Position numbers and translations under genes: made by a program
Assembly: GCA_024278215.1 (NCBI GenBank)
Contig: JAJRTR010000148.1
Span: 1 to 38,006, forward strand
Direction: 5' to 3'
From: a bacterium
Lineage (GTDB): Bacteria > UBP15 > UBA6099 > JAJRTR01
DNA length: 38,006 bases
The notes under the pieces: model-generated
Told to the model about the DNA's origin: nothing
What the model saw: only the letters and a program-made list of their open reading frames with translations
Databases searched by the model: none
Shown here: one piece after another, positions 4,906 to 24,298 of the stretch
Numbering within the stretch: position 1 is the stretch's first letter
Layout of the letters: the number at the start of each line of letters is the position of its first letter

Positions 4906-4925
4906 ATAGAGCCAATTGGCTCTAT
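4906..4925. repeat. Perfect 20-bp palindrome ATAGAGCCAATTGGCTCTAT, probable collapsed MITE scar
   Basis: Core GAGCCAATTGGCTC (4909-4922) equals both MITE termini fused through their shared CAATTG. Confidence 0.6.
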
Positions 4926-5060
4926 TATATGAACTGCTCGATAAAACAAATCTGAATGGATAGTGATCTATCTTCCGTAACTGTCTACATGTCCCACATT
5001 GGTGAAATATGCGGGACAACAGATATGGAAGCGGATACTACAGACATTCGTTCTATGACG

Positions 5061-5840
5061 CTATTCGCCGCCCTTGTTCATACTCTTCATGAATGTGCTG
5101 AAGAGGTCGATAGGAATGGGGAACAGGGTTGTAGAGTTGTTTTCGGCGGCGACTTCGACAAGTGTCTGGAGAAAACGGAGCTGGATGGTGATGGGCTCCT
5201 CGGCCATGATGGCGGCTGCTTCTGCGAGGCGTTTGGATGCCTGGAATTCACCTTCGGCTGATATGATCTTGGCCCGGCGTTCTCTTTCGGCTTCGGCCTG
5301 TCGTGCCATTGCGCGTTTCATGTCCTGGGGGAGTTCGACGTCTTTAACTTCGACGGTGGAGACTTTGATGCCCCAAGGATCGGTGTGGTCGTCGATGATT
5401 TCCTGGAGTTTACGGTTGATTTTTTCACGTTGTGAGAGTAGTTCGTCGAGTTCGGATTCGCCGAGCACGCTGCGGAGTGTAGTCTGCGCTATCTGTGAAG
5501 TAGCAGCGACAAAGTTTTCAACTTCTATGACTGATTTGTTGGGTTCCATGACGCGGAAGTATATTACGGCGTTGACCTTTACGGGCACGTTGTCGCGAGT
5601 GATGACTTCCTGTTCGGGTACATCCATGGTGATGGTACGCAGGTCAATCTTTATCATCTTATCAACGAACGGGATGATGATGATAAGTCCGGGGCCGCTG
5701 CCTCCGATAAGTGCTTTCGAGACGCGACCGAGTCTGAATATTACGGCGCGTTCATATTCGGACAGCACCTTTACTGCCGAGAAAAGAAACACAATGATGA
5801 GTACAACAATAAATACCAACTGTGAGGGAAGACCTTCCAT
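5061..5840 (-). CDS. Stomatin/slipin SPFH (band 7) protein
   Basis: N-terminal [57 protein letters not shown]. Confidence 0.95.
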
Positions 5841-5889
5841 AATATCACATCTCCTTTTTTAAGGCTGCAAGTAAAACCTTTTTATCACT

Positions 5890-6067
5890 GAGCCGATTGC
5901 AAAATTCTGATTCGGCTGCGGTCGGCTGCTATTGTCCATAGCTGCGTTGTCGGCACAAAATCGTCCTCGACGTACTCTACAAGTACGCCTGCGAGGATTT
6001 TACACCTCTGCCTTGCTCTGAACAATTTCGCTCGACCTCGCTACGAACATAATTTTGCAATTGGCTC
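5890..6067 (-). mobile_element. Palindromic MITE copy 1 (178 bp), RPE1-like
   Basis: TIRs GAGCCGATTGCAAAATT / AATTTTGCAATTGGCTC (16/17), flanked by CACT direct repeat (5886-5889, 6068-6071); aligns end to end with the other copies. Strand given is that of the downstream gene. Confidence 0.85.
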
Positions 6068-6089
6068 CACTGATGTTTTCAGTGCCGGA

Positions 6090-6118
6090 ATTATAACAGA
6101 CAACCGTTGTTATGTCAT
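6090..6118 (-). promoter_or_regulatory. Candidate sigma70 promoter for the stomatin gene
   Basis: Minus strand ATGACA-N17-TATAAT with extended -10 TGn. Confidence 0.5.
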
Positions 6119-7816
6119 CAATCTGACAATAATCTCCATTCCGTCAACTGAAACTATTTCCACCCGCGCGCCTGCTTCGATCGTTTCGCCCGACTGTGAC
6201 ACGGCGTTCCATAACTCGCCGTTTGCGAACACTTTTCCTTCAGGGTCGAGTTTTCTGCGTACTTTGCCCTTTTTACCGACCATTCCCTGTTTGCCCGTGG
6301 TGACCTGTGCTCTGTGCGATTTTATTACCGCCGCAAGCACCACGAGAAATAAGAACATTGTCGAAAATACAACGGTTGCAATAAGCTTCAGGTCTATCTG
6401 CATCGCGGGGTCTGTCGAATCTATAAGCATGAGAGAGCCCAATATCATTAGTGCTATCCCTCCAATCGTCAGCAGTCCATGACTGACTATTTTTATTTCG
6501 AGCATAAACATTACTACCGCACCGACGATCAGCAGTAGTCCGATGGTATTTATCGGAATCACCTGGAACGAGGTGAACGCAAGCACGAGACACACAGCGC
6601 CGATGACGCCCGGAACGACTGTGCCGGGGTGAGTCACTTCGAATATGAGCGCATAGACACCGATCATAAGTAGAATGTACGCTATATTCGGGTGGCCTAT
6701 GATGCTGAAGAATTTCTCGCGTAGCGACATTGCCACATCCTCGACGCGCGCGTCTTTTGTTTCAAACACATAAGTTGTGCCGCCGCTGATTTCTTCGCGG
6801 CCCGTGAGCAACCTCTTCAGTTCGTCGTCTATCTCGTCCACGGAAAGTTCGAGCTGGCCGCCGTAGTAATCTTCGCCCCTGATGCCCCGTTTTTTCAGCA
6901 TCTTCCGCAGTTTGCCGTCAAGGTCTTTGCCGGAGAGTAGCAATTGTGCAGGCTGCTCATTTTTTTCTATGATGCCGCGCTTGACAAGTGCTCCGCGCAG
7001 TTCGTCGTCGATGTCAGACGCCTCGACAACAATTTTGCCCGATGTCTTTTCGTTTTCGTCCGGGAGCAGTCCGCGTTTATCGAGTTCGGCCCTGAGGCTG
7101 TCGCTCATCTCGTCGAGATAGACGACATAGGTTTCCTGCCCGCCCTTGACCACCTCCATGCCGTCGAGTTGCGCGAGCAGGTCGTCGAAGTCGGAAGCGA
7201 TGATTTCGACGACATTTTTCGCCCTGGCTTCCTGCGCGGTGACAGAAATGCTTTTCACAACGGCGTTGCGCCCGATCTCGACGTTCCTGCCCCTGCGGCG
7301 CACGAGTTGTTCCATATATTTGACGGCATAGTTGGTCGTTTTTTCCTTCATTACATCGTCCATCTTCTGCCCGTCGCCCGACACGGGATGCGCCGAACCC
7401 GCGCTGGTATCGGGTGCCATGGCGGCGATGTCCGAGGCCATGAGAATGAAGAAACCAGCGGAAGTGGCCGTGCTGCCGTTGGGAAAAACGTAGACGACGA
7501 CAGGCAGGTGGGCATTGATCATCGCGGTGGCGATGTCTTTCATGGAGTCCATGAGGCCGCCGGGAGTGTCTATTGTAATGATGACGCAGTTAGCATTTAT
7601 TGATTCGGCGTGCCGGATGCCGCGCTCGACATAGTTTTTCGACGCGCCGCCGATGATACCGTCGATATCGAGGCGCACAATCGGCCCGGCGCGTTTCGCC
7701 CGCGCCGCCGACGAAGCCACGCACAGCAGCAGAACCGCGATTATCAACACGCGCACCGTTATGCGCACATTCGCCACCTGCCTATTGTGTCTGAAAATGT
7801 GTTGAAATCTGCTCAT
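6110..7816 (-). CDS. nfeD: NfeD long-form membrane-bound serine protease with an internal repeat insertion
   Basis: Signal peptide, IDTPGG, ATSAG (catalytic Ser), GSAHPV, KTTN (Lys), PNIAYILL TM domain, C-terminal OB fold (PEGKVFANGELWNA); adjacent to stomatin. Confidence 0.92.
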   Translation of the reverse strand: MSRFQHIFRHNRQVANVRITVRVLIIAVLLLCVASSAARAKRAGPIVRLDIDGIIGGASKNYVERGIRHAESINANCVIITIDTPGGLMDSMKDIATAMINAHLPVVVYVFPNGSTATSAGFFILMASDIAAMAPDTSAGSAHPVSGDGQKMDDVMKEKTTNYAVKYMEQLVRRRGRNVEIGRNAVVKSISVTAQEARAKNVVEIIASDFDDLLAQLDGMEVVKGGQETYVVYLDEMSDSLRAELDKRGLLPDENEKTSGKIVVEASDIDDELRGALVKRGIIEKNEQPAQLLLSGKDLDGKLRKMLKKRGIRGEDYYGGQLELSVDEIDDELKRLLTGREEISGGTTYVFETKDARVEDVAMSLREKFFSIIGHPNIAYILLMIGVYALIFEVTHPGTVVPGVIGAVCLVLAFTSFQVIPINTIGLLLIVGAVVMFMLEIKIVSHGLLTIGGIALMILGSLMLIDSTDPAMQIDLKLIATVVFSTMFLFLVVLAAVIKSHRAQVTTGKQGMVGKKGKVRRKLDPEGKVFANGELWNAVSQSGETIEAGARVEIVSVDGMEIIVRLMT

Positions 7817-10608
7817 GTGGCTTTTAGTCTTTCCGCCATTCTCGCCATGCGCTCGTCGTCGGGCGCCAGCTTCGCCGCCTTTGAAAGCATGTCGATCGAC
7901 TCTTGCAACATACCCTTTTCGTAATAAAGCAGCCCAAGATTTACGTAAATACCGACATGACTGTATTCGTATTTATTCAGCAACCCTTCATAAACAGCTA
8001 TCGCCTGATCAAGGTTGCCCGACATGGCGTCTGAATAAGCCTTTGAAGCGAGTACAACAGGATTGTCCGGCGAGTATTGCAAGGCACTCACGTATTCATT
8101 GAGTGCATCCTCGTAGCGTTCGAGATTCGCGAAAGTGTTTGCCAGCAGCAGGTGTCCGTAAACGCTTTCGTTATGTTTGTCGACGGCATGTTTGAAGTTG
8201 TCGAGCGCAGCTTCGTAGTCTTCACCAATGTTGCGCTGGGCAAGACCGAGCAGAAGGTGGCTGAGAGCGGTGGCGGGCTCGGACTTCCCGCGTTCCGTGA
8301 TGATGTCGACAGCCTCGCGAGCATTGCCTTCGTCGATAGAGTGCGCGGCACGCACAAGCATGTCGTCGGCGCTGTCGATGTAAGCAGCGATGACGTCGGC
8401 AGCGGGCGGGTCGGGTTCCGGTTCGAGATTGAGCAGTGCGCCCTGTTGCGTGATACTGAGCAGATCGTTGGAGGCGAAGTGCAGGAGCAGCGAGTCCGCG
8501 CCGGCTGTGCCTTCGGCGTCCTGTTGTTTTATCAGGAAGTCGTCGATGTACATTTTTTCCGGATCGTAGTCTTCGAGCAGTTCGAGCGGCTTGAGTCCGG
8601 TTCTGCGCGAGCGGCCCGCCAGAAGTACCATATCGGCATAGCCGAGGCCACTCGCTTTGAGTTTCGCGATAAGTTCGCCGGACATGCCGAATCTGCGCTG
8701 CATCATTTTCGCGAAAACATTTTCTTCGGCGGTAGTGAGCATGGCGGCGTTGAAGTTGAGAACGGCACGTTTCAGTCGAAGGCGTTGTTCCTGTAGTGTT
8801 TCCCGCGCGATTTTTGCTTTTCGCGCCGCGCTGTCGAGGTGGTCGATACCGGTCTTGATACTTTCGTTCATCTCGGTGGCAACCATGAATAGCGCGTGGC
8901 GGTTGTCCACGTCGAAAGTCTCCCCGAGTTGAGCGAGGCTGTTGTGAGTGTTGACGAAGCCCGCCTGAGTTTCGTCGATGGCCTCGTCGAGGGCGCTCTG
9001 TATGCGGGGCGATTCGGTTGTGAGGTTTTCCGCGACATAGGCCAGGTCTTCGGCGGCCCATATCGCATCGCTGCCCAGAGCGGATTTGTTTTGCAGGTAA
9101 TACCTCATTTCACGCGCGTTGCGTTCCGCCTCGCGTGTTGTTTCCGACAGCCTGGCGCCGTCCGACTCGAGTTCGGCCAGCGTATTGAACATTCCACTAA
9201 AGAATAAGCCTGCATTATTCAGCACGCTCACCCTGTATTCGTCGTAGGATGAAACTTCTTTTGCTGTCTCCGAGTAGCCGCGCAGGTTCTTGTAGAATGA
9301 CCTCTCGATTCCCGCTCTACGGTCTGCGATATCCAATTGTTGATTCCTTCCATTGATTGCCGTAGCCGATATTTCAGGGATCACCCTGTCCAGCCATGCG
9401 ACCGTGCCGTCTATGTCTTTTTCGGTAGCCGCCGGCAGTTCGGCGATAGTACCGGTATCATCGGACGTGTCGCTGTCGAGTCTTTCGAGACCCGCGACGG
9501 CTTCATCGTTGCCGGGATCGATGTCGAGCGCGTAGTTGTACCACTCGGACGCATCGTCTTTAAGGTCGAGAGCGGCAAACGAACGCGCCGCGCCAAGTGC
9601 CGCCTTTTCGTTTTCAGGATCAATATCGAGTATCTGTTTGTAGCGGTCGATCGCTTCGCGGTAATGGTATCTGTTCTCGTATGAGTTCGCGATATGCAGA
9701 AGGTTTTCCGGTGTCTTCTCCATCTGTGCAGTACGCGAGAAAGCCGCAATACGATTAGGAGTTTTCGGGTGGCTCTGCATGGCGACATCCATTTTATCGA
9801 GGTTGCCCGAAGGATGTTCGCGTTCGAGTTTGTGGAACATGGTAATCATCTGTTCCGGGTCGTAACTTGCGTCGAAAGCATACTCTGCGCCAAGGTGGTC
9901 GGCCTGATATTCGTCTTCGCGCGAATAATGAAGCTGCATCAGTGAGAAAGCGGTCCCGATGATACGGCCCGCCGCCTCGCTGGTATTGTTGTTAAGCAGA
10001 ATCGAACCGGCGATGAGAAGCGGCATTTGTTTCACTCTTTTCTTTCCATGATTCGCGGCCACGTGCCCGACTTCATGGCCCATCACGGCAGCAAGCTCAT
10101 CGTCGCTGTCGACCTTTTCCATCATGCCCCTGGTGACAAAAACAAAACCACCCGGTGCCGCGAATGCGTTCACTTCATCCGTGTCGACAATGTGGAATTC
10201 GTATGGTATATCTGTTCGGTGGCTCACGGCGGCCAGGCTCTGCCCTATATCGTTCACATAATTCTGCAATATCGGGTCTTCGACGAAACCGTATGTCCGG
10301 CGCATCTCCGCCACAGTGCCTTTTCCGATATGCTTTTCCGCTTTCCATGTCAGCTTGTCGAGCAAACCCGCCCTTGCCGGTGTCGCGAAAACCGCGGCCT
10401 GCGCCGTCAAAAGAAACAAAAGTATTGCGAGAACTGCTGGCATAGCTGTTTTGCGCGAAGGCGTCCCGTCGACCGCTGTGAACTCCGGACATACAAGTGT
10501 TTCCGCATTGTCCCGGCACCTGTGAGACGGGCTGAAACCGTTTTCCTTCCGGGCATGGGCATGCCTCGAACGGTATGCGTGAAATATCATTTCTGTAAGG
10601 GTAAACAT
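7813..10608 (-). CDS. M48-family zinc metalloprotease with TPRs and long helical domain (start uncertain: 10608, 10590 or 10443)
   Basis: VNAFAAPGG, HEVGH, YSREDEYQAD, SHP motifs; TPRs after the protease domain and at the C-terminus; ATGA overlap with nfeD. Confidence 0.88.
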   Translation of the reverse strand: MFTLTEMIFHAYRSRHAHARKENGFSPSHRCRDNAETLVCPEFTAVDGTPSRKTAMPAVLAILLFLLTAQAAVFATPARAGLLDKLTWKAEKHIGKGTVAEMRRTYGFVEDPILQNYVNDIGQSLAAVSHRTDIPYEFHIVDTDEVNAFAAPGGFVFVTRGMMEKVDSDDELAAVMGHEVGHVAANHGKKRVKQMPLLIAGSILLNNNTSEAAGRIIGTAFSLMQLHYSREDEYQADHLGAEYAFDASYDPEQMITMFHKLEREHPSGNLDKMDVAMQSHPKTPNRIAAFSRTAQMEKTPENLLHIANSYENRYHYREAIDRYKQILDIDPENEKAALGAARSFAALDLKDDASEWYNYALDIDPGNDEAVAGLERLDSDTSDDTGTIAELPAATEKDIDGTVAWLDRVIPEISATAINGRNQQLDIADRRAGIERSFYKNLRGYSETAKEVSSYDEYRVSVLNNAGLFFSGMFNTLAELESDGARLSETTREAERNAREMRYYLQNKSALGSDAIWAAEDLAYVAENLTTESPRIQSALDEAIDETQAGFVNTHNSLAQLGETFDVDNRHALFMVATEMNESIKTGIDHLDSAARKAKIARETLQEQRLRLKRAVLNFNAAMLTTAEENVFAKMMQRRFGMSGELIAKLKASGLGYADMVLLAGRSRRTGLKPLELLEDYDPEKMYIDDFLIKQQDAEGTAGADSLLLHFASNDLLSITQQGALLNLEPEPDPPAADVIAAYIDSADDMLVRAAHSIDEGNAREAVDIITERGKSEPATALSHLLLGLAQRNIGEDYEAALDNFKHAVDKHNESVYGHLLLANTFANLERYEDALNEYVSALQYSPDNPVVLASKAYSDAMSGNLDQAIAVYEGLLNKYEYSHVGIYVNLGLLYYEKGMLQESIDMLSKAAKLAPDDERMARMAERLKAT

Positions 10609-10743
10609 ATCGTAGTGAACCTGTCATTTCTCCGCTTCATGTTGGCAGGTTCCCTTTTCCCTCCCCTTTTTTGATAATTTACTGTATATTTTATTATCGT
10701 TTTTCACTGTTTTAAATACATTATATAAGGAATCAAAGAGAGT

Positions 10744-11922
10744 TTACACGCTGTCCGAATGTGCCAGGTCGTAATCGGCGTAAGTACGTTCGTGCGGTTC
10801 GATGTCGGGCCAGTATGTCCGCCACTTCGGATGGGTGATGTACCAGATTCTTTCCAGTTTTTTATTTCTCGCGTACCATTCGAGAGTGACTTTCATGCCG
10901 AGAGCGGTTTCAGGATATTTGAGCACATAGCCGGTGGCGGCAAGTTTGCTGTTGTCGTAAACATAATGTGATTTAAAAAAGGCGAAGTCGTCGCGTTCCA
11001 TATTGACAAAAGGCACCTTTATGCCTTTGGGCAGCAGGTTGTAGAAAGCGTCGGCCAGCCGGTCCGGTGTGCCGACGATAGGGATTCTGACTCTGAGCCT
11101 GCTCGCGCATTCCTCGAACATTTCCCTGAATGTGTTCGGTGTGTTGTCGGCGACATTGAATACCTGCCCGGAGATGTCCATGTTCGCGAGGCAGTATATA
11201 AGATGCATCGCCGCACCGACCACATCATCAATGTGCACCGAACTGAACATGTTGTTGCCGCTTCCGGGAATCGTAATGAAAGGGATGATCCCGCCCCATG
11301 AGAGCGGTGTAAGCGCCTTGGACATGGCATATTCGCCTCGGGGACCGTACACGCTTGCCGGTCTGATAATCACCAGCGGCATACCGTCGCGCTCATACTC
11401 CAGCGCTGCCTCTTCCTGTCTCAGCTTGGATTCCGAATAGTTGTTTACGGGGTTCGGCGTTTTGTCTTCCGTAATCGGGGCCGGACTGCTCGCACCGCCG
11501 TAGAGCATGACAGTACTCCATATTGCAACGCCCATGAGATCGGGCGCATATATCGAGGCGGTATCCAGAAGATTGCATGTACCGCCGACGTTAACCCTGT
11601 TCAGGGTACCGCGCGAAGCGCTCATATCGAATATCGCCGCAGGGTGCATTATGTATTGAACCCGCCGCTTCTCGAAAAGTTTCTTTAGCGAACTTCTCTC
11701 CGTAAGGTCCGCCGCTACGATGTCCAGTGTAACATCCGCATATCGCCCGGGGTGCGCTTCCATATAGTTCCTGTGCCTTCGCACCGCGCGAAAATCCGAA
11801 CCCGGCAGGTCCGTCGCAAGCACCGGGTAGCCGTGCTGGAGCAGGTAGTCGACTGCCGTTGAACCCGTAAATCCCGATGCGCCGGTTACCAGTACTACCC
11901 CCAACTCATCTGCTGTGCTCAT
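10744..11922 (-). CDS. NAD-dependent epimerase/dehydratase (extended SDR)
   Basis: VLVTGASGFTG, HPAA, VNVGGT, YSESK catalytic motif, RPASVYGP. Confidence 0.9.
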   Translation of the reverse strand: MSTADELGVVLVTGASGFTGSTAVDYLLQHGYPVLATDLPGSDFRAVRRHRNYMEAHPGRYADVTLDIVAADLTERSSLKKLFEKRRVQYIMHPAAIFDMSASRGTLNRVNVGGTCNLLDTASIYAPDLMGVAIWSTVMLYGGASSPAPITEDKTPNPVNNYSESKLRQEEAALEYERDGMPLVIIRPASVYGPRGEYAMSKALTPLSWGGIIPFITIPGSGNNMFSSVHIDDVVGAAMHLIYCLANMDISGQVFNVADNTPNTFREMFEECASRLRVRIPIVGTPDRLADAFYNLLPKGIKVPFVNMERDDFAFFKSHYVYDNSKLAATGYVLKYPETALGMKVTLEWYARNKKLERIWYITHPKWRTYWPDIEPHERTYADYDLAHSDSV

Positions 11923-12050
11923 AACTGCTTTTCCTCATCATGAAACATAAAATGGCACTTCTTATACATTTATCCTGATACGTAACGCGCTAAACATAAC
12001 TTCCGCTCCTGATTTTCCCCAGCCGTATTCAGCGGTGATAATTCTCTGAT

Positions 12051-12229
12051 GAGCCAACTGCAAAATTCTGATTTGGCTGCGGTCGGTTGCAATTGTCAAC
12101 AGTTGCGTTGTCGGCACAAAATCTTCCTCGACGTACTCTACTAAGTACGCCTGCGGTGATTTTGCAGCTCAGCCTTGTTTCTGAACAATTTCGGTCGACC
12201 TTGTTTCGAGCTTATTTTGCAATTTGCCC
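12051..12229 (-). mobile_element. Palindromic MITE copy 2 (179 bp), more diverged
   Basis: GAGCCAACTGCAAAATT ... TATTTTGCAATTTGCCC; same internal sequence as copy 1; flanks TGAT/TTAT (3/4). Confidence 0.85.
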
Positions 12230-12408
12230 TTATTTCATATTTTAGACTATTTTGTTCAATTAATGGTATATTCTCCGACAAAGCATTGCAGAAGGAACCA
12301 GCGTACAATTGCTGATTTGAATAATATGCAACGAATACTTTGTTTGTGATATAATGTAGGCATTACTAAAATCACTCGAGCCTGAAATGCCCTGAACGGA
12401 TAGTTGCC

Positions 12409-13074
12409 ATGCGCGGAAAAAAGAAGTCCGAGAAAACAAAAAGGGAACTTCCACTGATAAAAGTCAATATTGAATGCCTCGAAGACGGTATGAGAGCGGC
12501 AAGTGATATCTGCAACGATTACGGTACTCCGATTATCAGGCGTATGAGAAAAATCGAGAGCAAGCATATAACACAATTTCGCATGGCCGGCATCGAGATA
12601 ATAGACGTATGGGACGAGGAGCATGACGAGCATAACCGGAAAGAACAGGTTCCCTCAATCCACATAGACGACTACCCAAGGCATCTGTCGCGGCTTGTGA
12701 ATACAAATGTGCTTATAGTGGACGACTCGAAGTCGGCACGCATGGTACTACGCTATCTGATCGAGGACACCGGTTTAAAAGTCGTAGCGGAAGCAGGGGG
12801 CGGACGCGAGGGCATCGAAAAAGCACGCGAGTTCAAACCTACTCTCATCACACTCGACATTTCCATGCCCGACGTCGATGGCCTCACAGCACTTCCCGAC
12901 ATCCTTTCAGCCTCGCCGGGCTCGAAAGTCATTATGATCTCATCGCTCGGCTACAAAGACAGAATAGTAGAAGCGCTCACACTCGGTGCCGCGCAGTTCG
13001 TCACAAAACCATTCAGCCACAGCGGACTCCAGAAAGTAGTCATCAACACAATCATCGGCCACAAACCCGTGTGA
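12409..13074 (+). CDS. Response regulator: small N-terminal domain plus C-terminal CheY-like receiver
   Basis: VLIVDD, ITLDISMP (phospho-Asp), ISS, KPF. Confidence 0.88.
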   Translation: MRGKKKSEKTKRELPLIKVNIECLEDGMRAASDICNDYGTPIIRRMRKIESKHITQFRMAGIEIIDVWDEEHDEHNRKEQVPSIHIDDYPRHLSRLVNTNVLIVDDSKSARMVLRYLIEDTGLKVVAEAGGGREGIEKAREFKPTLITLDISMPDVDGLTALPDILSASPGSKVIMISSLGYKDRIVEALTLGAAQFVTKPFSHSGLQKVVINTIIGHKPV

Positions 13075-13098
13075 TCCCACAGCTACACCTCTGATGGC

Positions 13099-13701
13099 TT
13101 ATCTGTTGCCGGCGCAATCTATTGTCTCTGTTTCGGTAATAATAAAGTCAACTTTCTTATCGTGATCCTCGAAAGGAACAACGTCCAGCACTTGGTACGA
13201 GAAAGCGAGCGCGGCATAAGCCACCCCCGGTCTGAGGCGCTCTCTGAAGCGATCGTAGAATCCTTTGCCGTAGCCGATCCTGTTCCCTTCGCGGTCAAAA
13301 ACCGAACCCGGAACCACGACAAAATCGATCTCCTCAGGATCGACGGGCCGTATGAACTCCCTGACCGGCTCGGGGATGCCGAAAGTGCCCTCGCGCAGTT
13401 CGCTGTCGTAGTCCCTGATTTCCGTCGGCAGCAGGGATGTGTCTTTCAGGATCGAGACCGGAACGACAACCCTCTTTCCCTCGGCAATAGCGCGGCGGAT
13501 TATAGCTTCCGTCGGAACTTCGCTGCGGAATGATACAAAAAGCATGACCGTTTCAGCGTCTGCGAAAGGTGCGAAATCGAAAAGGCGGTCAGCAATCGAC
13601 CTGCCGGCTGCGGCTCGCTCGTCCGCAGGCATGCCGTCTCTTATTGCAAGTACCCGGCTTCGCATTTCCTTTTTTTCTTTTTTTATGTCTTTGCGCGTCA
13701 T
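13099..13701 (-). CDS. 5-formyltetrahydrofolate cyclo-ligase
   Basis: SFRSEVPT, FGIPEP, VVPGSVFDREGNRIGYGKGFYDR, HDKKVDFIITE; start ATG 13701 or GTG 13707. Confidence 0.95.
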   Translation of the reverse strand: MTRKDIKKEKKEMRSRVLAIRDGMPADERAAAGRSIADRLFDFAPFADAETVMLFVSFRSEVPTEAIIRRAIAEGKRVVVPVSILKDTSLLPTEIRDYDSELREGTFGIPEPVREFIRPVDPEEIDFVVVPGSVFDREGNRIGYGKGFYDRFRERLRPGVAYAALAFSYQVLDVVPFEDHDKKVDFIITETETIDCAGNR

Positions 13702-13919
13702 ATTCACCTGGAAACCATTCCTAATCTGTATTTTTAATTCGAAATTTCATGTTGAAAATATCCCTTTCCCGAGATTGATTATAGTTGCTTACAGCATTCT
13801 CATGCAAATGAGATAGTGTCAATCAGGAACAAAGAAGAATTTGAGGAATAATCATAAAATACACAACACGTATATTCCGTATTTTTTTCGTAATCAATAT
13901 GAAAAAAAACGCAGCTCCA

Positions 13920-13928
13920 TGTTATAAT
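13920..13928 (+). promoter_or_regulatory. Extended -10 promoter candidate for the PilZ gene
   Basis: TGTTATAAT (TGnTATAAT) in AT-rich intergenic DNA. Confidence 0.5.
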
Positions 13929-13938
13929 ATCATTGTAA

Positions 13939-14117
13939 GAGCTAATTGCAAAATTATATTCGTAGAGAGGTCGAACGAAATTTTTCAGAAGCAAGGCGGA
14001 GGTGTAAAATCCCCGCAGGCGTACTCGCCGAGTACGTTGAGGATGATTTTGTGCCGACAATGCAGCTATGTACAATTGCAGCCGACCGCAGCCGAATCAG
14101 AATTTTACAATTGGCTC
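13939..14117 (+). mobile_element. Palindromic MITE copy 3 (179 bp), inverted relative to copies 1 and 2
   Basis: TIRs GAGCTAATTGCAAAATT / AATTTTACAATTGGCTC; perfect GTAA duplication (13935-13938, 14118-14121); reverse complement aligns closely with copy 1. Confidence 0.88.
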
Positions 14118-14137
14118 GTAAGAGAAAGCAGAACATC

Positions 14138-14527
14138 ATGGCACCGGCTACAGAGAGACAACAGGACAGGCGCAGATCGAAGCGTATCCCGCTGAGAGGT
14201 GCAAGCATGGCATGTCGCGGGGATAGAGGCGATCTGCTTAACATATCAACACTGTTTGATATCAGTGAAGGCGGGGTTGGGTTCTGCACACGGGACAAAG
14301 TTGACATCGGCACAAAAATAAAATTTGACTTCTACCTGCCGATCTCAAGAAAAGGCGAAGATATAAACGGAGAAGGTAAAGTAGTATGGATAGTACAGTA
14401 CTGCGACGTATTCGGAGATAATGTAATGCGATGCGGGCTGCAATTTCTGAATCTGCCGTCAAGATCACAACAGGGAATCCGCAAATATATAAAAATCACA
14501 TTGAAACAGAAGAAAAACGGTATCTGA
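14138..14527 (+). CDS. PilZ-domain c-di-GMP receptor
   Basis: RRSKR (RxxxR) and DISEGG (DxSxxG), GKVVW, CGLQF; the longer ORF from 13946 runs through the MITE. Confidence 0.88.
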   Translation: MAPATERQQDRRRSKRIPLRGASMACRGDRGDLLNISTLFDISEGGVGFCTRDKVDIGTKIKFDFYLPISRKGEDINGEGKVVWIVQYCDVFGDNVMRCGLQFLNLPSRSQQGIRKYIKITLKQKKNGI

Positions 14528-14546
14528 ACTGAACGCCGTTCAGTTC
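14526..14546. terminator. Hairpin right after the PilZ stop
   Basis: GAACTGAAC-GCC-GTTCAGTTC perfect 9-bp stem, but no U tract. Confidence 0.35.
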
Positions 14547-14742
14547 GACATGAAGAACGCCGGTCCAGGATAAATAACCCCGGAAAAACACAGAAAATAA
14601 CTCTCTTAAAAAATATACTTTACCCGGAAGTAATAAATGTATTATAATAGTTTGACTTTCAGTTCATTGTGGGTATTTTATAAGGAGCATTCCTTGTAGA
14701 GTATAAGCAATGCTAAAAGATAAAGATTGGACAGGATCGCCC

Positions 14743-15807
14743 ATGAAGCGGTTAGCTATTACAGGGTTAATGTTAATGATATTTGCGGCAGTGCCGGCAC
14801 TGGCAGTTGTCAATGATGCTGGAATTCTCAACAATCAGGGTGTTGAGCTGTACGAGCGGGGCAGTGCAGAGGAAGCCGTGTACAAGTTCTATCATGCGCT
14901 CGAGTTCGATCCGTACAACCCGGCTATTTACACAAACCTTGGTTATGCATTCCAGGCACTGGATGAACACAAAAAAGCGGCTAATGCTTTTAAAAAAGCG
15001 CTAAGCTTCGATCCGAGCAACCTCGAGAACCATAATAGTCTTGGCGTCAGTCTCTACAATATGGGCGAAAAGGACCGCGCAATCGCAGAATGGGAATTCG
15101 TGCTTTCAAACGACCCGAGCAATACTGCCGCGGCAGCCAACCTCGGCATTGTCCGCCACCCCGAGAAAGCCGACAAGATTGTCGAACAAACTAAAGAGGC
15201 ACTCGGCGGCGAATATGCCGCAAGTGAATACGATCAGGCTATCGAACTTAAAACGCTCTTCGGTAACGGCAAGGCCGCTTTCATGGTCGGCAAATACGAC
15301 GATGCAATCGGCAATTTCGAAAAAATCATGGAGCGCAAACCCGAATCAAAATTCTCACACTACTATGCGGGCATGGCCTACGCATATCTACAGATGAAAG
15401 AACCGGCGCTAAAAAATCTTAGAGAATATCTCATCCTCGAGTCATATCCTCCACAGAGCCAGGAGGCTTATGAAACCGCAAAGGACGCATACAACACGCT
15501 CCGTGATGGTGGCGATGTCAAACCGGTAAGAAGGTCTTCGGCCATGGCGGCCAATTCTTTCAACCTCGGCAAGAAAGCTTACAATGACAAAGACTACTTT
15601 AAGGCTATAAAATTTCTCAGCGAGGCATACAAACTCAAACCGAATTCTTATGCCACGAACTATTATCTGGGTATGTCATACAAGGAAGTAGACGATACCG
15701 AACGCGCGGTTTACCATCTCAACAAATGCCTGTTTGCAGGCCCCGAATATCGCTCGAAAGAAGATGCAAGAAAGATCGCTGAAGTCCTTAAGAAGCTTGT
15801 AGACTGA
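14743..15807 (+). CDS. Exported TPR-repeat protein
   Basis: Signal peptide MKRLAITGLMLMIFAAVPALA, multiple TPRs (YTNLGYAF, HNSLGVSLY, YYAGMAY, YYLGMSY); alternative start 14710. Confidence 0.88.
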   Translation: MKRLAITGLMLMIFAAVPALAVVNDAGILNNQGVELYERGSAEEAVYKFYHALEFDPYNPAIYTNLGYAFQALDEHKKAANAFKKALSFDPSNLENHNSLGVSLYNMGEKDRAIAEWEFVLSNDPSNTAAAANLGIVRHPEKADKIVEQTKEALGGEYAASEYDQAIELKTLFGNGKAAFMVGKYDDAIGNFEKIMERKPESKFSHYYAGMAYAYLQMKEPALKNLREYLILESYPPQSQEAYETAKDAYNTLRDGGDVKPVRRSSAMAANSFNLGKKAYNDKDYFKAIKFLSEAYKLKPNSYATNYYLGMSYKEVDDTERAVYHLNKCLFAGPEYRSKEDARKIAEVLKKLVD

Positions 15808-15988
15808 CCCCGCGCCGATTTGCCGGGTTGGTGTATCCACTTGTTGTCGTTTCCGGAACATTGCAGTTTTTTGTGACAGCTTGATTTTATGGATTATTGT
15901 TTCCTCGATATTTTGTTTTTCTCCCATTTCAAATATCATTGGAGTAAACATCATCTCATTCAATAAGTCTGCAAACAACGACGATCTT

Positions 15989-16621: not shown

Positions 16622-16754
16622 TCGAATTCGTTCTGTTTCGCAACCGGATATGTGACGGGCCGACGGCAAAGGAAATTTTACCGATTATCATTTATTCGGA
16701 GGAACAATGGGTGTAAACTGTTTGTCCGAAGGGTGACACCGGATACACACAGCA

Positions 16755-20159: not shown

Positions 20160-20322
20160 GATTATCCTCCCCCCCCTTATTACGTTGTGAGCGATAAGGC
20201 GTTTTTCAGCTATAACCCTTATCCCACATATTTCACCAATGCGGGCTAAACAGTACTATTCTTAGACCGCGGCGGCATCTTTCGTTATAATCCTTGAGAT
20301 GACTATTTGCCGGAGGAAGAAC

Positions 20323-23085
20323 ATGAAACAAAGAATCCTGACATCAACACTTGCAATTGCTGTTCTTATTATGGTTTCGTCTGCCGCCGTTGCAGAACCC
20401 GGCAACGATATAGGCACCACAAAAAAAACGATACTCGACAACGGGCTTACTGTGATCACAAAAGAAATACACACCGCGCCGGTAGTCTACTTCAGTATAT
20501 GGTACAAAGTGGGTGCGCGAAATGAGACAACCGGAATTACCGGCATATCTCATGCGCTCGAACACATGATGTTTAAAGGTTCCACGAAATTCCCACGGGC
20601 CGGCGAGTCGGACGAACTTGTCCGGCGCATCGGCGGCATGGGCAACGCGGGCACGAGTACCGACTACACGGTATTCTACGAGACCGTGCCGACCGGCATG
20701 GAAGATAAGGTCATCGATATCGAGTCCGACCGTATGTCAAACGCTCTGTTGCGTGCCGATGATTTCGCCTCTGAGATCAAAGTGGTAATGGAAGAGCGGA
20801 AGATGCGTAATGAAGACAGCGCGAAAGGTCTTTTCTGGGAAGAGATCAACGCCGCCGCCTTTAAAGTACATCCATACGGATGGCCGATTGTCGGCTGGAT
20901 GAACGACCTGAAAGCAATGAAGATTGAAGACCTTCGCAAGTATTACAAAAGCCACTACGCGCCGGATAATGCTATTGTGGTAATGTGCGGTGATTTCAAC
21001 ACGGAAGAAGCAATGAAAAAAATATCCGCGACTTTCGGGAAGGTGGCGAGAGCCGAAACTCCGGCCCCGAAAATGAACCAGGTCGAACCACAACAGGAAG
21101 TCGAAAAACGTATTGTATATCCATCGAAAAAATCAAATCTCGCCTATGTTGTTTACGCGTATCACGCGCCGACTTATGGGCACCCTGACAGCCCTGCGCT
21201 CGAAATTGTGGACAGCATTCTGAGCAGCGGCCGCCTTTCGCGCCTCTCGCAAACCTTCGTGGAATCCGGACTTGCCAGTTCGGCCGACGCTGTGCACGAC
21301 ACCAATACGGACCCTTACCTTTTCTACTTCGAGATAGAGCTCGTGCCAGGTGTCGACACTGACCTGATCGAGAAAAAACTCGCCGAACTCATAGAAGACC
21401 TGAAGCAGAATCCGGTCACCGAACATGAGCTTCAAAAGGCCAAAAACAGGTTCATCGCGGAGGAAGTCCTGTCTTCGCAGAGCATATCGAGCTATGGCCG
21501 CAAGCTCGGCTGGTTCGACCTCACAACCGGCGACCCGGATTTCTGGGACAAATATATAAAAGAAATAAACGATGTAACCGCCGATGATGTGATGAACGTC
21601 GCAAAGAAATATTTCAGGCCGACAAACCGAACTGTGGGCATCCTGATACCGGAAGGCAATGGTGCCGGTATGTCGTCTGAAAAACCGGAACATAACACCG
21701 GACCCCGGAAGGAATACGCCTACACAGGCGCGAAACACGACGAGATGCCCAATGCCGGTACCGAAATTAAACCCTTTGCATCTATCGCGGCAGACGGGGA
21801 CACCGAATTTCCCGGAATAGACTTCGCGTCACGTGTAAAGAAAAAGGTACTGTCCAACGGACTCACTCTTTTAATATACGAGAACCCGGCATTCCCGGTG
21901 GTTGTTGTGAACGGTGTCATTCGCGGCGGCGGATCATACAGCGACCCGGAAGACTTGAGCGGACTGGCAAAACTCACCGCGGCCACAATGCGCAGAGGCA
22001 CGAAAACAAGAACATACGATGAGATAAATGAAGCGCTGGAGTTCGTCGGCGCAAGCGTCGAACTGTCCGCGGGCAACGAGGCTTCGGTTTTCAGCGGCGA
22101 GTTTCTGAAAAAAGATTTTTCGACGGGTTTCGAACTTTTGTCCGACATCCTTCTCAACCCGTCATTCCCGGAAGACGGTTTCGAGATCGAAAGAAACATC
22201 GCTGTCGCGCAATATACCGCTATGCAGAAAAATACGCGCAGCATGGCATGGAAAAAATACATGAACATGATGTACAGAGGACATCCGTATTCGAACCCGG
22301 TCGACGGTTCGGAAGCCGGACTTGCGGCGGCTACTGTCGAAGCCATGAAAACATTCCACGATAATAACTATCGTCCGGAAAACACGATAATCGCCGTGGC
22401 GGGAGACGTAACCGCGGCAGAGGCAGGACAACTCGCCGAAAAACTGCTGGGCAAGTGGGAACGCGGCGGCAGGAAATTCAACCCGCCGCCCGTCGCTGAT
22501 CTCAAGGGCTTCAGCAGCGAAACGATCGACATGCCCGAGAAAATGCAGGATGTTTTCGTGATGGGTTTCCGATCGCCGAGACCGGCGGATGATGACTATG
22601 AAACTTTTGATATGATGACCGACATACTGGCGGGCACCGACCTCACATCGAGGCTCTACACGACAATCAGAGAACAGGAAGGTCTCGTCTATTATGTGTA
22701 CGGTTTCGATCTCGCGAAAACCGCCGCCGCCGCTTTCCAGATATCCGGCGGCGTCAGTCCGCAGAATCTCAACCGCGCAATCGAGCTTACGAAAAAGGAG
22801 ATCGCGAGGATAAGCGAGGAACCGGTCGGCGACGAGGAACTCGCGGACGCTAAGAGTTACGCCGTCGGCCACCTGCCGCTGACGATAGAAACAAATTCGC
22901 AAATCGCGAAGTTGCTTACTTCCTATGAATATCACGGTCGCAGCTTCGACGACATCGATAATTATGCCGACAAGGTTAACAAAATCACGATGGATGATAT
23001 AATGAATGTTGCCCGCAAGTACCTGGTTATCGACAAGTGTGTGCTCGCAGTGGCAGGGCCGGAACCCGGCGATATTGAAAAATAA
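20323..23085 (+). CDS. Exported M16 (pitrilysin/insulinase) zinc protease, two-module
   Basis: GGAGG RBS, signal peptide, HALEHMMFKGS (HxxEH); second module without the zinc motif but with SRL...IREQEGLVY. Confidence 0.93.
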   Translation: MKQRILTSTLAIAVLIMVSSAAVAEPGNDIGTTKKTILDNGLTVITKEIHTAPVVYFSIWYKVGARNETTGITGISHALEHMMFKGSTKFPRAGESDELVRRIGGMGNAGTSTDYTVFYETVPTGMEDKVIDIESDRMSNALLRADDFASEIKVVMEERKMRNEDSAKGLFWEEINAAAFKVHPYGWPIVGWMNDLKAMKIEDLRKYYKSHYAPDNAIVVMCGDFNTEEAMKKISATFGKVARAETPAPKMNQVEPQQEVEKRIVYPSKKSNLAYVVYAYHAPTYGHPDSPALEIVDSILSSGRLSRLSQTFVESGLASSADAVHDTNTDPYLFYFEIELVPGVDTDLIEKKLAELIEDLKQNPVTEHELQKAKNRFIAEEVLSSQSISSYGRKLGWFDLTTGDPDFWDKYIKEINDVTADDVMNVAKKYFRPTNRTVGILIPEGNGAGMSSEKPEHNTGPRKEYAYTGAKHDEMPNAGTEIKPFASIAADGDTEFPGIDFASRVKKKVLSNGLTLLIYENPAFPVVVVNGVIRGGGSYSDPEDLSGLAKLTAATMRRGTKTRTYDEINEALEFVGASVELSAGNEASVFSGEFLKKDFSTGFELLSDILLNPSFPEDGFEIERNIAVAQYTAMQKNTRSMAWKKYMNMMYRGHPYSNPVDGSEAGLAAATVEAMKTFHDNNYRPENTIIAVAGDVTAAEAGQLAEKLLGKWERGGRKFNPPPVADLKGFSSETIDMPEKMQDVFVMGFRSPRPADDDYETFDMMTDILAGTDLTSRLYTTIREQEGLVYYVYGFDLAKTAAAAFQISGGVSPQNLNRAIELTKKEIARISEEPVGDEELADAKSYAVGHLPLTIETNSQIAKLLTSYEYHGRSFDDIDNYADKVNKITMDDIMNVARKYLVIDKCVLAVAGPEPGDIEK

Positions 23086-23155
23086 GCGCAGGACATATTA
23101 GTATGAACCGCACTGTGCACTTCTTCCGATGGTATACAGGCCCTGGAGGTATCTG

Positions 23156-24244
23156 ATGAACGCTGAACATCTATATGCTGTCGTAATGGCGGGCGGCCGA
23201 GGCTCACGGTTCTGGCCCCGCAGCAGAAAAAAATGTTCCAAACAGACTCTGAATATCATCGGAAATAATACGATGATCCAGGACTCTGTCTACAGGCTCT
23301 CGGACATCATAGGCCCCGACAGGATTTTTATTATGACCAACTCGCTTCTGCGCGACCAGATACTCGAGCAGGTGCCCGAAGTTCCGCCTGCGCAGGTGAT
23401 TGCCGAACCGGCGAGCCGCAATACCGCGCCATGTATCGGGCTTGCGGCTGTAATACTCCGCAGGCGAGACCCGGACGCGATCATGGCCGCATTCGCAGCC
23501 GACCACTTGATAAAGGATGTCGGACGCTTCCACCGCGACCTTGTGATGGCCGCCAGCTTCGCCACCGACCGTAAAGAGATTGTAACATTCGGGGTGCCGA
23601 CTGAAAGGCCGGAAACAGGATTCGGCTATCTCCAGGCAGGCGAGGTGGTTGCAGATTCGGGCAACGGCGATGTTGTTCGGAAGGTCAGGCGATTCGTGGA
23701 AAAACCGGATGTCGAACGGGCGGAAATGTTTCACAAAGACCCGGACTATTATATAAACAGCGGTATGTTTGTGTGGCATGTCTCCACGATACTCGAGGAG
23801 ATCGAACACTACCTTCCCGACATGGCCGCGGGACTTTATGAAATCGAAAAGAACCTTGGCACACCGCTGGAATTCAAATCGCTCGGCGAGGTTTTTCCGG
23901 ACCTCGAACCGGTCTCCATAGACTATGGCGTAATGGAAAAGTCGGAGCGGGTTGTTATGGTCGCCGCTGGTTTCGGATGGAACGATATAGGCAGCTGGGG
24001 TTCGCTGTACGATGTGTGGCCTAAAGACAAACAGGGCAACGCCTGTATATGCAGAAAGTTGACGATCGACACAAATAACAGCCTTGTTTACAGCCCCGGC
24101 AAACTCGTCGCGGTGATCGGAATGCATGACGTGATTATTGTGGAAACGGAAGACGCGCTGCTTGTGTGTCACAAGGACAGGGCGCAGGATGTCAGCAAAG
24201 TTATCGATCTTTGCAGAAAGAACCGAATGGAAGAATATCTATAG
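23156..24244 (+). CDS. manC: Mannose-1-phosphate guanylyltransferase (no PMI cupin domain)
   Basis: GGAGG RBS; MAGGRGSRFWPRSR, EPASRNTAPCI, ADH, PETGFGY, FVEKP, NSGMF, SIDYGVME, WNDIGSW. Confidence 0.93.
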   Translation: MNAEHLYAVVMAGGRGSRFWPRSRKKCSKQTLNIIGNNTMIQDSVYRLSDIIGPDRIFIMTNSLLRDQILEQVPEVPPAQVIAEPASRNTAPCIGLAAVILRRRDPDAIMAAFAADHLIKDVGRFHRDLVMAASFATDRKEIVTFGVPTERPETGFGYLQAGEVVADSGNGDVVRKVRRFVEKPDVERAEMFHKDPDYYINSGMFVWHVSTILEEIEHYLPDMAAGLYEIEKNLGTPLEFKSLGEVFPDLEPVSIDYGVMEKSERVVMVAAGFGWNDIGSWGSLYDVWPKDKQGNACICRKLTIDTNNSLVYSPGKLVAVIGMHDVIIVETEDALLVCHKDRAQDVSKVIDLCRKNRMEEYL

Positions 24245-24250
24245 GTAAAT

Positions 24251-24298
24251 GCCAATTGCGGCTGACCTGTGCCGGACCAGAATTTTGCAATTGGATCA
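24251..24298 (+). mobile_element. Truncated MITE copy (one TIR plus ~30 bp)
   Basis: Reverse complement TGATCCAATTGCAAAATTCTGGTCCGGCACAGGTCAGCCGCAATTGGC aligns ungapped with copy 1 start TGAGCCGATTGCAAAATTCTGATTCGGCTGCGGTCGGCTGCTATTGTC. Confidence 0.75.

What the first reader, a model, noticed from the sequence alone, without database searches (positions are those of the whole stretch)
4906..24298. MITE copies sit in probable 5' leaders in one orientation, just after -10 boxes
Seen: copy 3 starts 10 nt after TGnTATAAT (13920-13928) and ends 20 nt before the PilZ ATG. Copy 1 lies 22 nt after a minus-strand ATGACA-N17-TATAAT and ahead of the stomatin RBS. Copy 2 starts 9 nt after a minus-strand TAAAAT (12239-12244) upstream of the SDR. 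The truncated copy ends 24 nt before ald. The scar abuts a minus-strand TATAAT (4924-4929). The four oriented copies present the same strand to the putative transcript. Inference: promoter-directed insertion, or a mobile 5'-UTR RNA module that tunes mRNA stability or translation across unrelated genes. The sample is small, copy 2 lies between divergent genes, and AT-rich target preference is an alternative explanation.
Basis: partly seen in the sequence, partly recalled or inferred. Interest (0 to 1): 0.78.

Follow-up and report, generated by a model that had tools for sequence, protein, structure and literature searches.

The report
Oriented hairpin mini-transposons near gene starts
The repeats are a new family of small non-coding mobile elements, and copies that land just upstream of a gene almost always face the same way; this fits known ways such elements affect neighbouring genes, so it is noteworthy but not a new kind of system.

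Summary
The repeats are real. They are a 178-nt MITE with about 50-nt imperfect terminal inverted repeats and a 4-bp AT-rich target duplication at C|WWWW|G. The window's own 4.55-Mb draft genome holds 228 full and 221 partial copies.

The orientation claim generalises. Of copies whose nearest facing start codon is within 60 nt, 50 of 67 show the same strand to the mRNA (p=7e-5). Beyond 100 nt the split is 43:40. Operon-internal spacers give 16:2 and 49-nt mini-derivatives give 18:4. A target-site model trained on distant copies does not explain this. It also leaves an excess of favoured-orientation copies 30-100 nt upstream of starts (55 observed, 29.6 expected).

The "-10 box" claim is not specific. 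-10-like hexamers are equally common on both sides and both strands of the elements, as expected for an AT-rich target, and their spacing to the element varies. Favoured-orientation copies do lie downstream of two-hexamer promoter-like sites more often than controls (22/61 against 6/61).

Best reading: an ordinary transposon family that passes an orientation-dependent filter in transcribed DNA. The favoured strand folds as the tighter RNA hairpin. No RNA data were available, so the mechanism is inferred. An earlier AI note of this scan describes a similar pattern in another genome.

The parts
5890..6067 (+). MITE copy 1, full length (178 nt). It has the 4-bp duplication CACT at 5886-5889 and 6068-6071. 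It lies in the nfeD-stomatin spacer, 49 nt upstream of the minus-strand stomatin start, so the mRNA-sense strand is the reverse complement of the model orientation ('anti').
   Evidence: (nhmmer 213.7 bits against 52.9 on the other strand)
12051..12229 (+). MITE copy 2, full length but more diverged, with a degenerate right terminus. Its flanking 4-mers are TGAT and TTAT (3 of 4 match). It lies between divergent genes: 128 nt from the epimerase start ('anti') and 179 nt from the response-regulator start ('same').
13939..14117 (-). MITE copy 3, full length, with the 4-bp duplication GTAA at 13935-13938 and 14118-14121. It ends 20 nt before the PilZ ATG at 14138 and is in the 'anti' orientation relative to PilZ.
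24249..24297 (-). 49-nt mini-derivative, made of arm A plus the last 12 nt of the other terminus. Its flanking 4-mers are GTAA and ATAA (3 of 4 match). It lies in the 78-nt spacer between the nucleotidyl-transferase gene and ald, 25 nt before the ald ATG, in the 'anti' orientation.
4909..4922 (.). Scar: the 14-nt palindrome GAGCCAATTGGCTC, formed from the two element tips joined at their shared CAATTG. It is flanked by TATA and TATT and lies about 24 nt upstream of the minus-strand PMT_2 glycosyltransferase gene. It is one of 5 such scars in the genome; 4 of the 5 have a perfect 4-bp duplication.
6090..6118 (-). Promoter-like site ATGACA-N17-TATAAT with TG, 11 of 12 matches. It overlaps the nfeD stop codon and lies 22 nt upstream of copy 1 in the gene sense.
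13899..13928 (+). Promoter-like site ATGAAA-N18-TATAAT with TG, 10 of 12 matches. It ends 10 nt before copy 3.
5061..5840 (-). Stomatin/SPFH gene downstream of copy 1. Its partner nfeD lies at 6110-7777 on the minus strand.
   Evidence: the pair is conserved in 4 relatives, none of which matched the MITE
14138..14527 (+). PilZ-domain gene downstream of copy 3.
24323..25426 (+). Alanine dehydrogenase gene downstream of the mini copy.

Best explanation
The repeats are a lineage-specific, non-autonomous DDE-type transposon (MITE). It is 178 nt long and its two roughly 50-nt arms pair into a hairpin of about 85 bp. It inserts at C|WWWW|G and duplicates the four central bases. Insertion itself is only weakly oriented, with the T-richer strand of the target tending to lie in the element's model frame.

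Where a copy lands in transcribed DNA (a 5' leader or an operon spacer) it is co-transcribed, and an orientation-dependent filter acts at insertion or soon after. Copies persist when the mRNA carries the 'anti' strand. That strand folds about 10 kcal/mol tighter because six G.U pairs replace A.C mismatches.

Copies in the other orientation are largely confined to untranscribed DNA upstream of promoters or to gene 3' ends. I infer that their RNA is polar: it either terminates transcription or destabilises the message. Its central hairpin is followed directly by AUUUUA.

Shown: mobility, the target site, the distance-dependent orientation bias, its independence from target composition, and the position of favoured copies downstream of promoter-like sites. 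Inferred: co-transcription, and the reason the other orientation is disfavoured.
For: Copy number: 228 full and 221 partial copies, with strand assignment separated by at least 90 bits.

Target site: an exact 4-bp TSD in 111 of 183 copies, against 0-10 in offset controls. The target is C at -1 in 47 of 77 copies, WWWW, then G at +4 in 38 of 77.

Orientation against distance: 50:17 within 60 nt of the nearest facing start and 43:40 beyond 100 nt. Operon-internal-like sites give 16:2 and mini or arm-A copies give 18:4.

Not a target-composition effect: the near-start bias holds whatever the TSD skew (9:4, 8:3 and 24:7). The target model predicts near-start orientation in only 36 of 68 copies.

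Promoter-like sites (score 8 or more) within 90 nt upstream: 'anti' copies 22/61, antisense control 6/61 (p=0.001), 'same' copies 5/40 (p=0.011). 'Same' copies more often have the promoter between the element and the gene (13/40 against 8/61, p=0.025).

Operon evidence: copy 1 sits in an nfeD-stomatin spacer. In 3 relatives where the spacer could be read it is 33-150 nt long, and none of the 4 relatives matched the MITE.

Folding: the 'anti' RNA folds at -80.8 against -65.0 kcal/mol for the consensus and is more stable in 209 of 228 copies, with 6 G.U pairs against 0 (copy 1).

Gene 3' ends: next to stop codons and 100 nt or more from the next start, the trend reverses to 7 'anti' against 17 'same'.

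Age: the bias is the same in the oldest, middle and youngest thirds of copies (25:11, 25:11, 26:11). It is therefore set at or soon after insertion.
Against: No transcript data exist for this organism in the tools. Co-transcription, termination and processing are therefore all unobserved.

Relative to the target model, the bias at 30-100 nt is an excess of 'anti' copies (55 against 29.6 expected, p=2e-5). 'Same' copies there are as expected (27 against 27.6). Only at 0-30 nt are 'same' copies depleted (4 against 10.7). Purifying selection alone therefore needs an added regional preference for promoter-proximal DNA.

The simple scan found no terminator-like site in copies 1 and 3 on either strand. 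The mini copies show the bias although they lack the central hairpin.

Private stem substitutions show no significant RNA-level selection: 43:32 in near-start 'anti' copies against 112:113 elsewhere (p=0.29).

Genes were called with my own crude caller (3537 genes). The reversal at stop codons is weak (p=0.06).
Confidence: 0.5

Rival explanations
1. The favoured orientation carries its own outward-reading promoter at the arm-A end. Insertions that cut a gene off from its native promoter or operon would then survive only when that end faces the gene.
For: Near-start and operon-internal copies have arm A next to the gene. The mini copies, which keep only arm A, show the same bias (18:4). The 'anti' strand holds the best internal candidates: TTGTTC-N17-TAAAAT (score 11.45) and TGGACA-N17-CAGAAT (8.3), against 8.8 for the best on the other strand. 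An excess of favoured copies, rather than only a loss of the others, fits a helpful feature.
Against: The candidates are weak next to the flanking native promoter-like sites, which score 13.2 and 15.7. The tool's 9-of-12 scan found no outward-reading site at the arm-A end of copy 1 or copy 3. The CAGAAT box is CGGAAT, losing the key A, in 3 of 18 near-start mini copies. The variable positions that would make the -35 or the first -10 box (model positions 41 and 25) are no more frequent in near-start 'anti' copies (0.54 against 0.54, and 0.52 against 0.60). An outward promoter firing antisense into an upstream gene should be avoided, yet that arrangement is the commoner one next to stop codons (17:7).
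Confidence: 0.17
2. Insertion itself is oriented and aimed at promoter-proximal or transcribed DNA. An asymmetric transposition complex (the two arms differ beyond nt 17) would read the direction of transcription or an asymmetric target, so the bias would be mechanistic and not selective.
For: There is an excess of favoured copies 30-100 nt upstream of starts over the target model (55 against 29.6). The bias is identical in the youngest third of copies (26:11). The target has a real intrinsic asymmetry: the TSD holds 329 T against 238 A in the element frame, and leave-one-out prediction of orientation is right in 51 of 77 copies far from starts. An earlier AI note (e1-1130902) reports a similar arrangement in an unrelated genome.
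Against: The target model does not predict near-start orientation (36 of 68) and the bias is independent of TSD skew. There is no fixed spacing to -10 boxes and no side or strand excess of -10-like hexamers next to the ends. From recall, not from a search, I know of no DDE transposon with a 4-bp TSD whose orientation follows transcription. Orientation is random beyond 100 nt, including in tandem gene contexts.
Confidence: 0.18
3. The bias is an artefact of composition or of annotation. Either A-rich leaders combined with a T-preferring target produce it, or my gene caller's start choices do, and it has no functional meaning.
For: The target model does predict a 1.8:1 excess of the favoured orientation in the last 30 nt before starts (19.4 against 10.7). 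Genes were called with a home-made caller. Other repeat families abut many copies.
Against: The bias survives a restriction to genes of at least 150 aa with high coding score (44:15) and a switch to the most upstream in-frame start (64:24). At 30-100 nt the model predicts parity (29.6 against 27.6) but 55:27 is observed. The promoter-position contrast between the two orientations does not depend on start codons being exact to the base.
Confidence: 0.1

Closest known systems
Correia / NEMIS elements (CREE) of Neisseria
   Same: Both are abundant non-coding elements of about 100-155 nt or more, with terminal inverted repeats, that fold into long hairpins. They are often co-transcribed with neighbouring genes, are reported as RNase III substrates, and carry putative promoters (passages of PMC2229807; background of PMC3049150).
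   Different: The element here is 178 nt and duplicates 4 bp at C|WWWW|G. From recall, Correia elements duplicate TA. The host phylum differs. No sequence comparison with Correia was run, and Rfam gave no match. RNase III processing and promoter activity are untested here.
ERIC / IRU elements of enterobacteria, as studied in Yersinia
   Same: ERIC is an imperfect palindromic MITE co-transcribed with flanking genes, whose effect on mRNA stability depends on orientation through an RNase E site (passages of PMC2229807; PMC3049150). This is the closest functional precedent for an orientation filter in transcribed DNA.
   Different: The reported ERIC effect is on upstream transcripts inside operons. 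Here the bias is tied to distance from the downstream start codon. I could not read the primary paper (PMC1291288 is not held), so I cannot say whether a genome-wide orientation bias was reported there.
Pneumococcal BOX, RUP and SPRITE repeats
   Same: These are small interspersed repeats that are transcribed with neighbouring genes. The effect of the boxB module on downstream expression depends on orientation (PMC3049150 passages).
   Different: Those repeats are over-represented between convergent genes (same paper). Here the convergent sites hold about the expected number (23 against 26.4) and the excess lies upstream of starts.
IS5-family insertion sequences and their MITE derivatives
   Same: From recall of ISfinder descriptions, not from a call: a 4-bp target duplication and termini beginning GAG/GGC are typical of the IS5 group.
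   Different: No autonomous element with matching termini was found. The three DDE_Tnp_1 genes of this draft genome have other or no matching inverted repeats.

Membership tests
Bacterial MITE (non-autonomous DDE transposon derivative) | Short element, too small to encode a transposase | tested here: met
   The model is 178 nt long. The mini form is 44-58 nt.
Bacterial MITE (non-autonomous DDE transposon derivative) | Terminal inverted repeats | tested here: met
   The 17-nt tips GAGCCAATTGCAAAATT / AATTTTGCAATTGGCTC are near-perfect, and the arms are about 50 nt and imperfect.
Bacterial MITE (non-autonomous DDE transposon derivative) | Target-site duplication of fixed length | tested here: met
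   The 4-bp duplication is exact in 111 of 183 copies and matches at 3 or more of 4 positions in 145 of 183. Offset controls give 0-10.
Bacterial MITE (non-autonomous DDE transposon derivative) | Many dispersed copies at unrelated loci | tested here: met
   There are 449 non-overlapping matches on many contigs. Flanks share only short stretches that belong to other repeats.
Bacterial MITE (non-autonomous DDE transposon derivative) | A cognate autonomous IS with the same termini | tested here: inconclusive
   None was found among tip pairs 250-5000 bp apart or at the 3 DDE_Tnp_1 genes. The genome is a 207-contig draft, 95% complete, and 72 partial copies lie at contig ends.
Correia / NEMIS (CREE) | TA target duplication and Neisseria-type 26-bp termini (features recalled, not from a call) | tested here: not met
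   The duplication is 4 bp, WWWW. The termini differ from the recalled ones, but no alignment with a Correia sequence was run.
Correia / NEMIS (CREE) | RNase III cleavage of the transcribed hairpin | not testable with these tools
   Only the predicted hairpin is available: -65.9 and -74.9 kcal/mol, with z-scores of -6.6 and -7.6.
REP / REPIN (RAYT-mobilised) | 20-40 nt palindromes with a GTAG or CGTC tag, no target duplication, and an associated tyrosine transposase (recalled; abstract of PMC3733652 seen) | tested here: not met
   A 4-bp duplication is present and the element is a 178-nt unit with a GAGCC tip. No search for a RAYT gene was run.
Curated RNA family (Rfam) | Match to any covariance model | tested here: not met
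   There were 0 matches at gathering thresholds in the window and 0 at E up to 1 on copy 1 with flanks.

The most novel reading that the evidence does not exclude
The orientation coherence is an active property of the family and not a passive survival filter. One version is that the transposition complex reads transcription direction and targets promoter-proximal DNA. Another is that, with many copies transcribed, a minority-sense transcript is fully complementary over 178 nt to the pool of majority-sense leaders and is silenced in trans. That would drive all transcribed copies to one sense and make the family a genome-wide, self-reinforcing leader module.
Probability: 0.15. Interest if true: 0.75.

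Novelty: new member of a known kind. Interest (0 to 1): 0.45.

Why it matters
This MITE family has enough copies in one genome (228 full and 221 partial in 4.55 Mb) to measure how orientation depends on distance to genes. The result is a sharp switch: about 3:1 within 60 nt of a start codon and parity beyond 100 nt. Target composition does not explain it.

If the cause is an orientation-specific effect of the transcribed hairpin, the family is a natural experiment on how long 5' hairpins are tolerated in leaders and operons. The host is a little-known, uncultured sulfite-respiring lineage. If the cause is oriented insertion, it would be an unusual property for a transposon with a 4-bp duplication.

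A 2024 review of prokaryotic MITEs contains no occurrence of the word 'orientation' (term search in PMC10969869). One library search for MITE orientation bias found no such genome-wide report. The primary ERIC paper could not be read.

Tried and rejected
RNA evidence: one search for sequencing runs with window 5001-15000; none was listed and no RNA holder was listed. No reads could therefore be laid.

Parent IS: element-tip pairs 250-5000 bp apart flank ordinary genes, not a transposase. PF01609 gave 3 genes without matching termini and PF13586 gave none.

Other genomes: 40 relatives and the whole phylum sample (12 other genomes) gave only one distant relative of the element in G011. G019, in another phylum, has a 175-nt element with different tips. 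G019 has only about 6 copies, too few to repeat the orientation test.

Central-module scan: a scan of genome contigs with a pattern from the central module returned 2 chance matches in what look like coding sequences. G019's own copies were not listed.

Conservation tests: neither the candidate promoter positions nor strand-specific G.U-compatible substitutions gave a significant signal.

Rfam: no matches. tRNA scan: none in the window.

Target-composition explanation: rejected as the sole cause of the near-start orientation bias.

Duplicated loci: rejected as a cause, because flanks share only 32-102-nt stretches from other repeat families.

Papers: the ERIC paper was not held under its DOI or its PMC id.
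Full report
WHAT IS THERE. The window holds three 178-nt copies of one repeat at 5890-6067 (+), 12051-12229 (+) and 13939-14117 (-). It also holds a 49-nt derivative at 24249-24297 (-) and a 14-nt palindromic scar at 4909-4922.

The window's own genome is a 4.55-Mb draft of 207 contigs, 95% complete. I built a profile from 212 full-length BLAST matches. It found 449 non-overlapping copies: 228 full length and 221 partial, of which 72 lie at contig ends. The strand of every full copy is unambiguous, with a margin of at least 90 bits over the other strand.

The tips are GAGCCAATTGCAAAATT and its complement. The arms are about 50 nt and imperfectly complementary. Both strands fold into one long hairpin: copy 1 gives -65.9 and -74.9 kcal/mol, with z-scores of -6.6 and -7.6. 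Rfam has no match.

MOBILITY. The four bases on either side of the element are identical in 111 of 183 full copies, and at least 3 of 4 match in 145 of 183. Shifted registers give 0-10. The duplicated bases are about 80% A/T. The base before them is C in 47 of 77 copies and the base after is G in 38 of 77, so the target is C|WWWW|G.

Five scars of the form GAGCCAATTGGCTC occur in the genome, and 4 of the 5 have a perfect 4-bp duplication. CAATTG is itself a palindrome and therefore occurs as a direct repeat in both tips. The scars are what a deletion between those two repeats would leave (inference).

Twenty-seven mini forms of 44-58 nt keep both tips.

No autonomous partner was found. The family is essentially confined to this genome. 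Among 40 relatives and the 12 other genomes of the phylum sample, one (G011) has a 71%-identical relative of the element. An earlier AI note (e1-1454343), which I did not check, names the phylum UBP15.

WINDOW CLAIMS. Pfam confirms stomatin, NfeD, an NAD-dependent epimerase, PilZ and alanine dehydrogenase. It places the PilZ domain from residue 10 of the ATG at 14138, so copy 3 does end 20 nt before the gene.

Copy 1 lies in the nfeD-stomatin spacer. The stomatin homologue was found in 4 relatives, none of which matched the MITE. In 3 of them the spacer to an upstream gene could be read, at 33-150 nt.

Two-hexamer promoter-like sites with TG lie 22 nt upstream of copy 1 and 10 nt upstream of copy 3. 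None includes the hexamers named for copy 2, the mini copy or the scar.

GENOME-WIDE POSITION AND ORIENTATION. No gene finder was installed, so I called 3537 genes with a codon-usage and RBS scorer of my own (85% coding). Of the 228 full copies, 4 overlap a called gene by more than 30 nt and 19 lack a called gene on one side. The remaining 205 split into 114 between tandem genes, 68 between divergent genes and 23 between convergent genes.

I call a copy 'anti' when the sense strand of the neighbouring gene is the reverse complement of the model, as in all window copies. I count each copy once, by its nearest facing start codon. The split is then 50 'anti' to 17 'same' within 60 nt (p=7e-5), 26:16 at 61-100 nt and 43:40 beyond. 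The result holds for genes of at least 150 aa with high score (44:15) and for the most upstream in-frame start (64:24).

Copies with 60 nt or less to both the upstream stop and the downstream start split 16:2. Arm-A-only and mini copies within 60 nt of a start split 18:4. Next to stop codons, and 100 nt or more from the next start, the trend reverses to 7:17 (p=0.06). The near-start bias is the same in the oldest, middle and youngest thirds of copies (25:11, 25:11, 26:11).

IS IT TARGET COMPOSITION? The duplicated bases are T-rich in the element's frame (329 T against 238 A, p=1.5e-4). This holds even for copies 100 nt or more from any gene (80 against 55). A 24-position target model trained on 77 copies more than 100 nt from starts recovers orientation in 51 of 77 by leave-one-out. 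Insertion is therefore weakly oriented by the target itself. The same model recovers orientation in only 36 of 68 near-start copies, and the near-start bias holds for every class of duplication skew.

I summed the model over all intergenic positions and scaled it to 205 copies. Expected 'anti'/'same' counts are:
- 0-30 nt from a start: 19.4/10.7 expected, 17/4 observed.
- 30-60 nt: 14.5/12.8 expected, 31/11 observed.
- 60-100 nt: 15.1/14.8 expected, 24/16 observed.
- All farther bins and the convergent regions are close to expectation (23 observed against 26.4 for convergent).

The unexplained part is therefore an excess of 'anti' copies at 30-100 nt (55 against 29.6, p=2e-5) and a deficit of 'same' copies in the last 30 nt (p=0.02).

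THE -10 BOX CLAIM. Hexamers matching TATAAT in at least 5 of 6 positions lie within 30 nt upstream of 21 of 48 near-start 'anti' copies. The antisense control is 17 of 48, and 'same' copies give 7 of 17. In the element's frame, hexamers 0-14 nt from an end number 47, 52, 45 and 46 for the four combinations of end and reading direction. Gaps between hexamer and element range from 0 to 60 nt. Adjacency to a -10-like hexamer is therefore what an AT-rich target gives.

A fuller score (-35, spacer, -10 and TG) does separate the classes. A site scoring 8 or more lies within 90 nt upstream in 22 of 61 'anti' copies up to 150 nt from a start. The antisense control gives 6 of 61, and 'same' copies give 5 of 40. 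'Same' copies more often have such a site between the element and the gene (13/40 against 8/61). Favoured copies therefore tend to sit inside the transcribed leader, and the others upstream of the promoter.

MECHANISM. The 'anti' strand folds tighter as RNA: -80.8 against -65.0 kcal/mol for the consensus. It is tighter in 209 of 228 copies and uses 6 G.U pairs where the other strand has mismatches. In the 'same' sense the central hairpin is followed directly by AUUUUA. In the 'anti' sense the U run lies four bases further on (read from the consensus). The simple terminator scan did not flag either strand of copies 1 and 3.

Candidate outward promoters on the 'anti' strand are weak. Tests for selection on them, or on RNA pairing after insertion, were not significant. 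No sequencing run was listed.

I therefore rank four explanations:
- an orientation-dependent filter on co-transcribed copies: 0.5;
- oriented insertion: 0.18;
- an element-borne promoter: 0.17;
- an artefact: 0.1.

COMPARISON WITH WHAT IS KNOWN. MITEs that are co-transcribed and act through RNA structure are established for Correia/NEMIS (RNase III, putative promoters) and for ERIC, whose effect depends on orientation. Orientation-dependent effects are also reported for pneumococcal BOX modules (passages of PMC2229807 and PMC3049150). This family meets the structural definition of a MITE. It is not a Correia or ERIC member, because its duplication is 4 bp at C|WWWW|G.

A term search of a 2024 review of prokaryotic MITEs found no occurrence of 'orientation' (PMC10969869). 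One library search for MITE orientation bias found no genome-wide report of this kind. The primary ERIC paper was not available. An earlier AI note of this scan (e1-1130902) describes co-oriented hairpin MITEs just behind predicted start sites in an unrelated genome. I did not test that note.

VERDICT. This is a real, new MITE family of a known kind. It has a robust and quantifiable orientation bias near gene starts. Specific association with -10 boxes is not supported.

Noticed in passing
window 4993-5026 and 20212-20245; also many genome copies next to MITE fragments: A second small repeat family built around the hairpin CCCGCATATTTCACCAATGCGGG, or a CCGGATTTCTCACAAAGGAATCCGG variant. It often abuts truncated MITE arms at ...TGTCCATAGCC. 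Flanks of many MITE copies share 32-102-nt stretches with each other, so several repeat families cluster together.
   Followed up: partly
L003:179-353 and L005:1450-1624 (G019); L002 about 1500-1660 (G011): Elements of about 175 nt in two other genomes, one in another phylum, have unrelated tips (GAAGCGGTTTCATAAG... and AGAGGCTCTAACAAAA...). They share about 75 nt of the central hairpin module with this MITE at 71-81% identity. A central module shared between elements with different tips is unexplained.
   Followed up: partly
genome-wide; window example 24249-24297: There are 27 mini-elements of 44-58 nt that keep both tips (8 with an exact 4-bp duplication, 16 with at least 3 of 4 matching) and 5 fourteen-nt scars. 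Together they form a decay series from the 178-nt element.
   Followed up: partly
window 13946-14527 (+): One reading frame is open from 8 nt inside copy 3, through the rest of it and into the PilZ gene. On the 'anti' strand an ATG near position 128 of the consensus opens a frame that I read by eye as running out of the element end. In copy 3 it stops in the duplicated GTAA (read). Fusion to downstream genes was not surveyed.
   Followed up: no
window 6110-7777 and 5061-5840 (-): The NfeD protease-like gene and the stomatin gene form a pair also seen in relatives. One relative (G006) has a TGTATAAT box in the spacer, which suggests an old internal promoter ahead of stomatin.
   Followed up: partly
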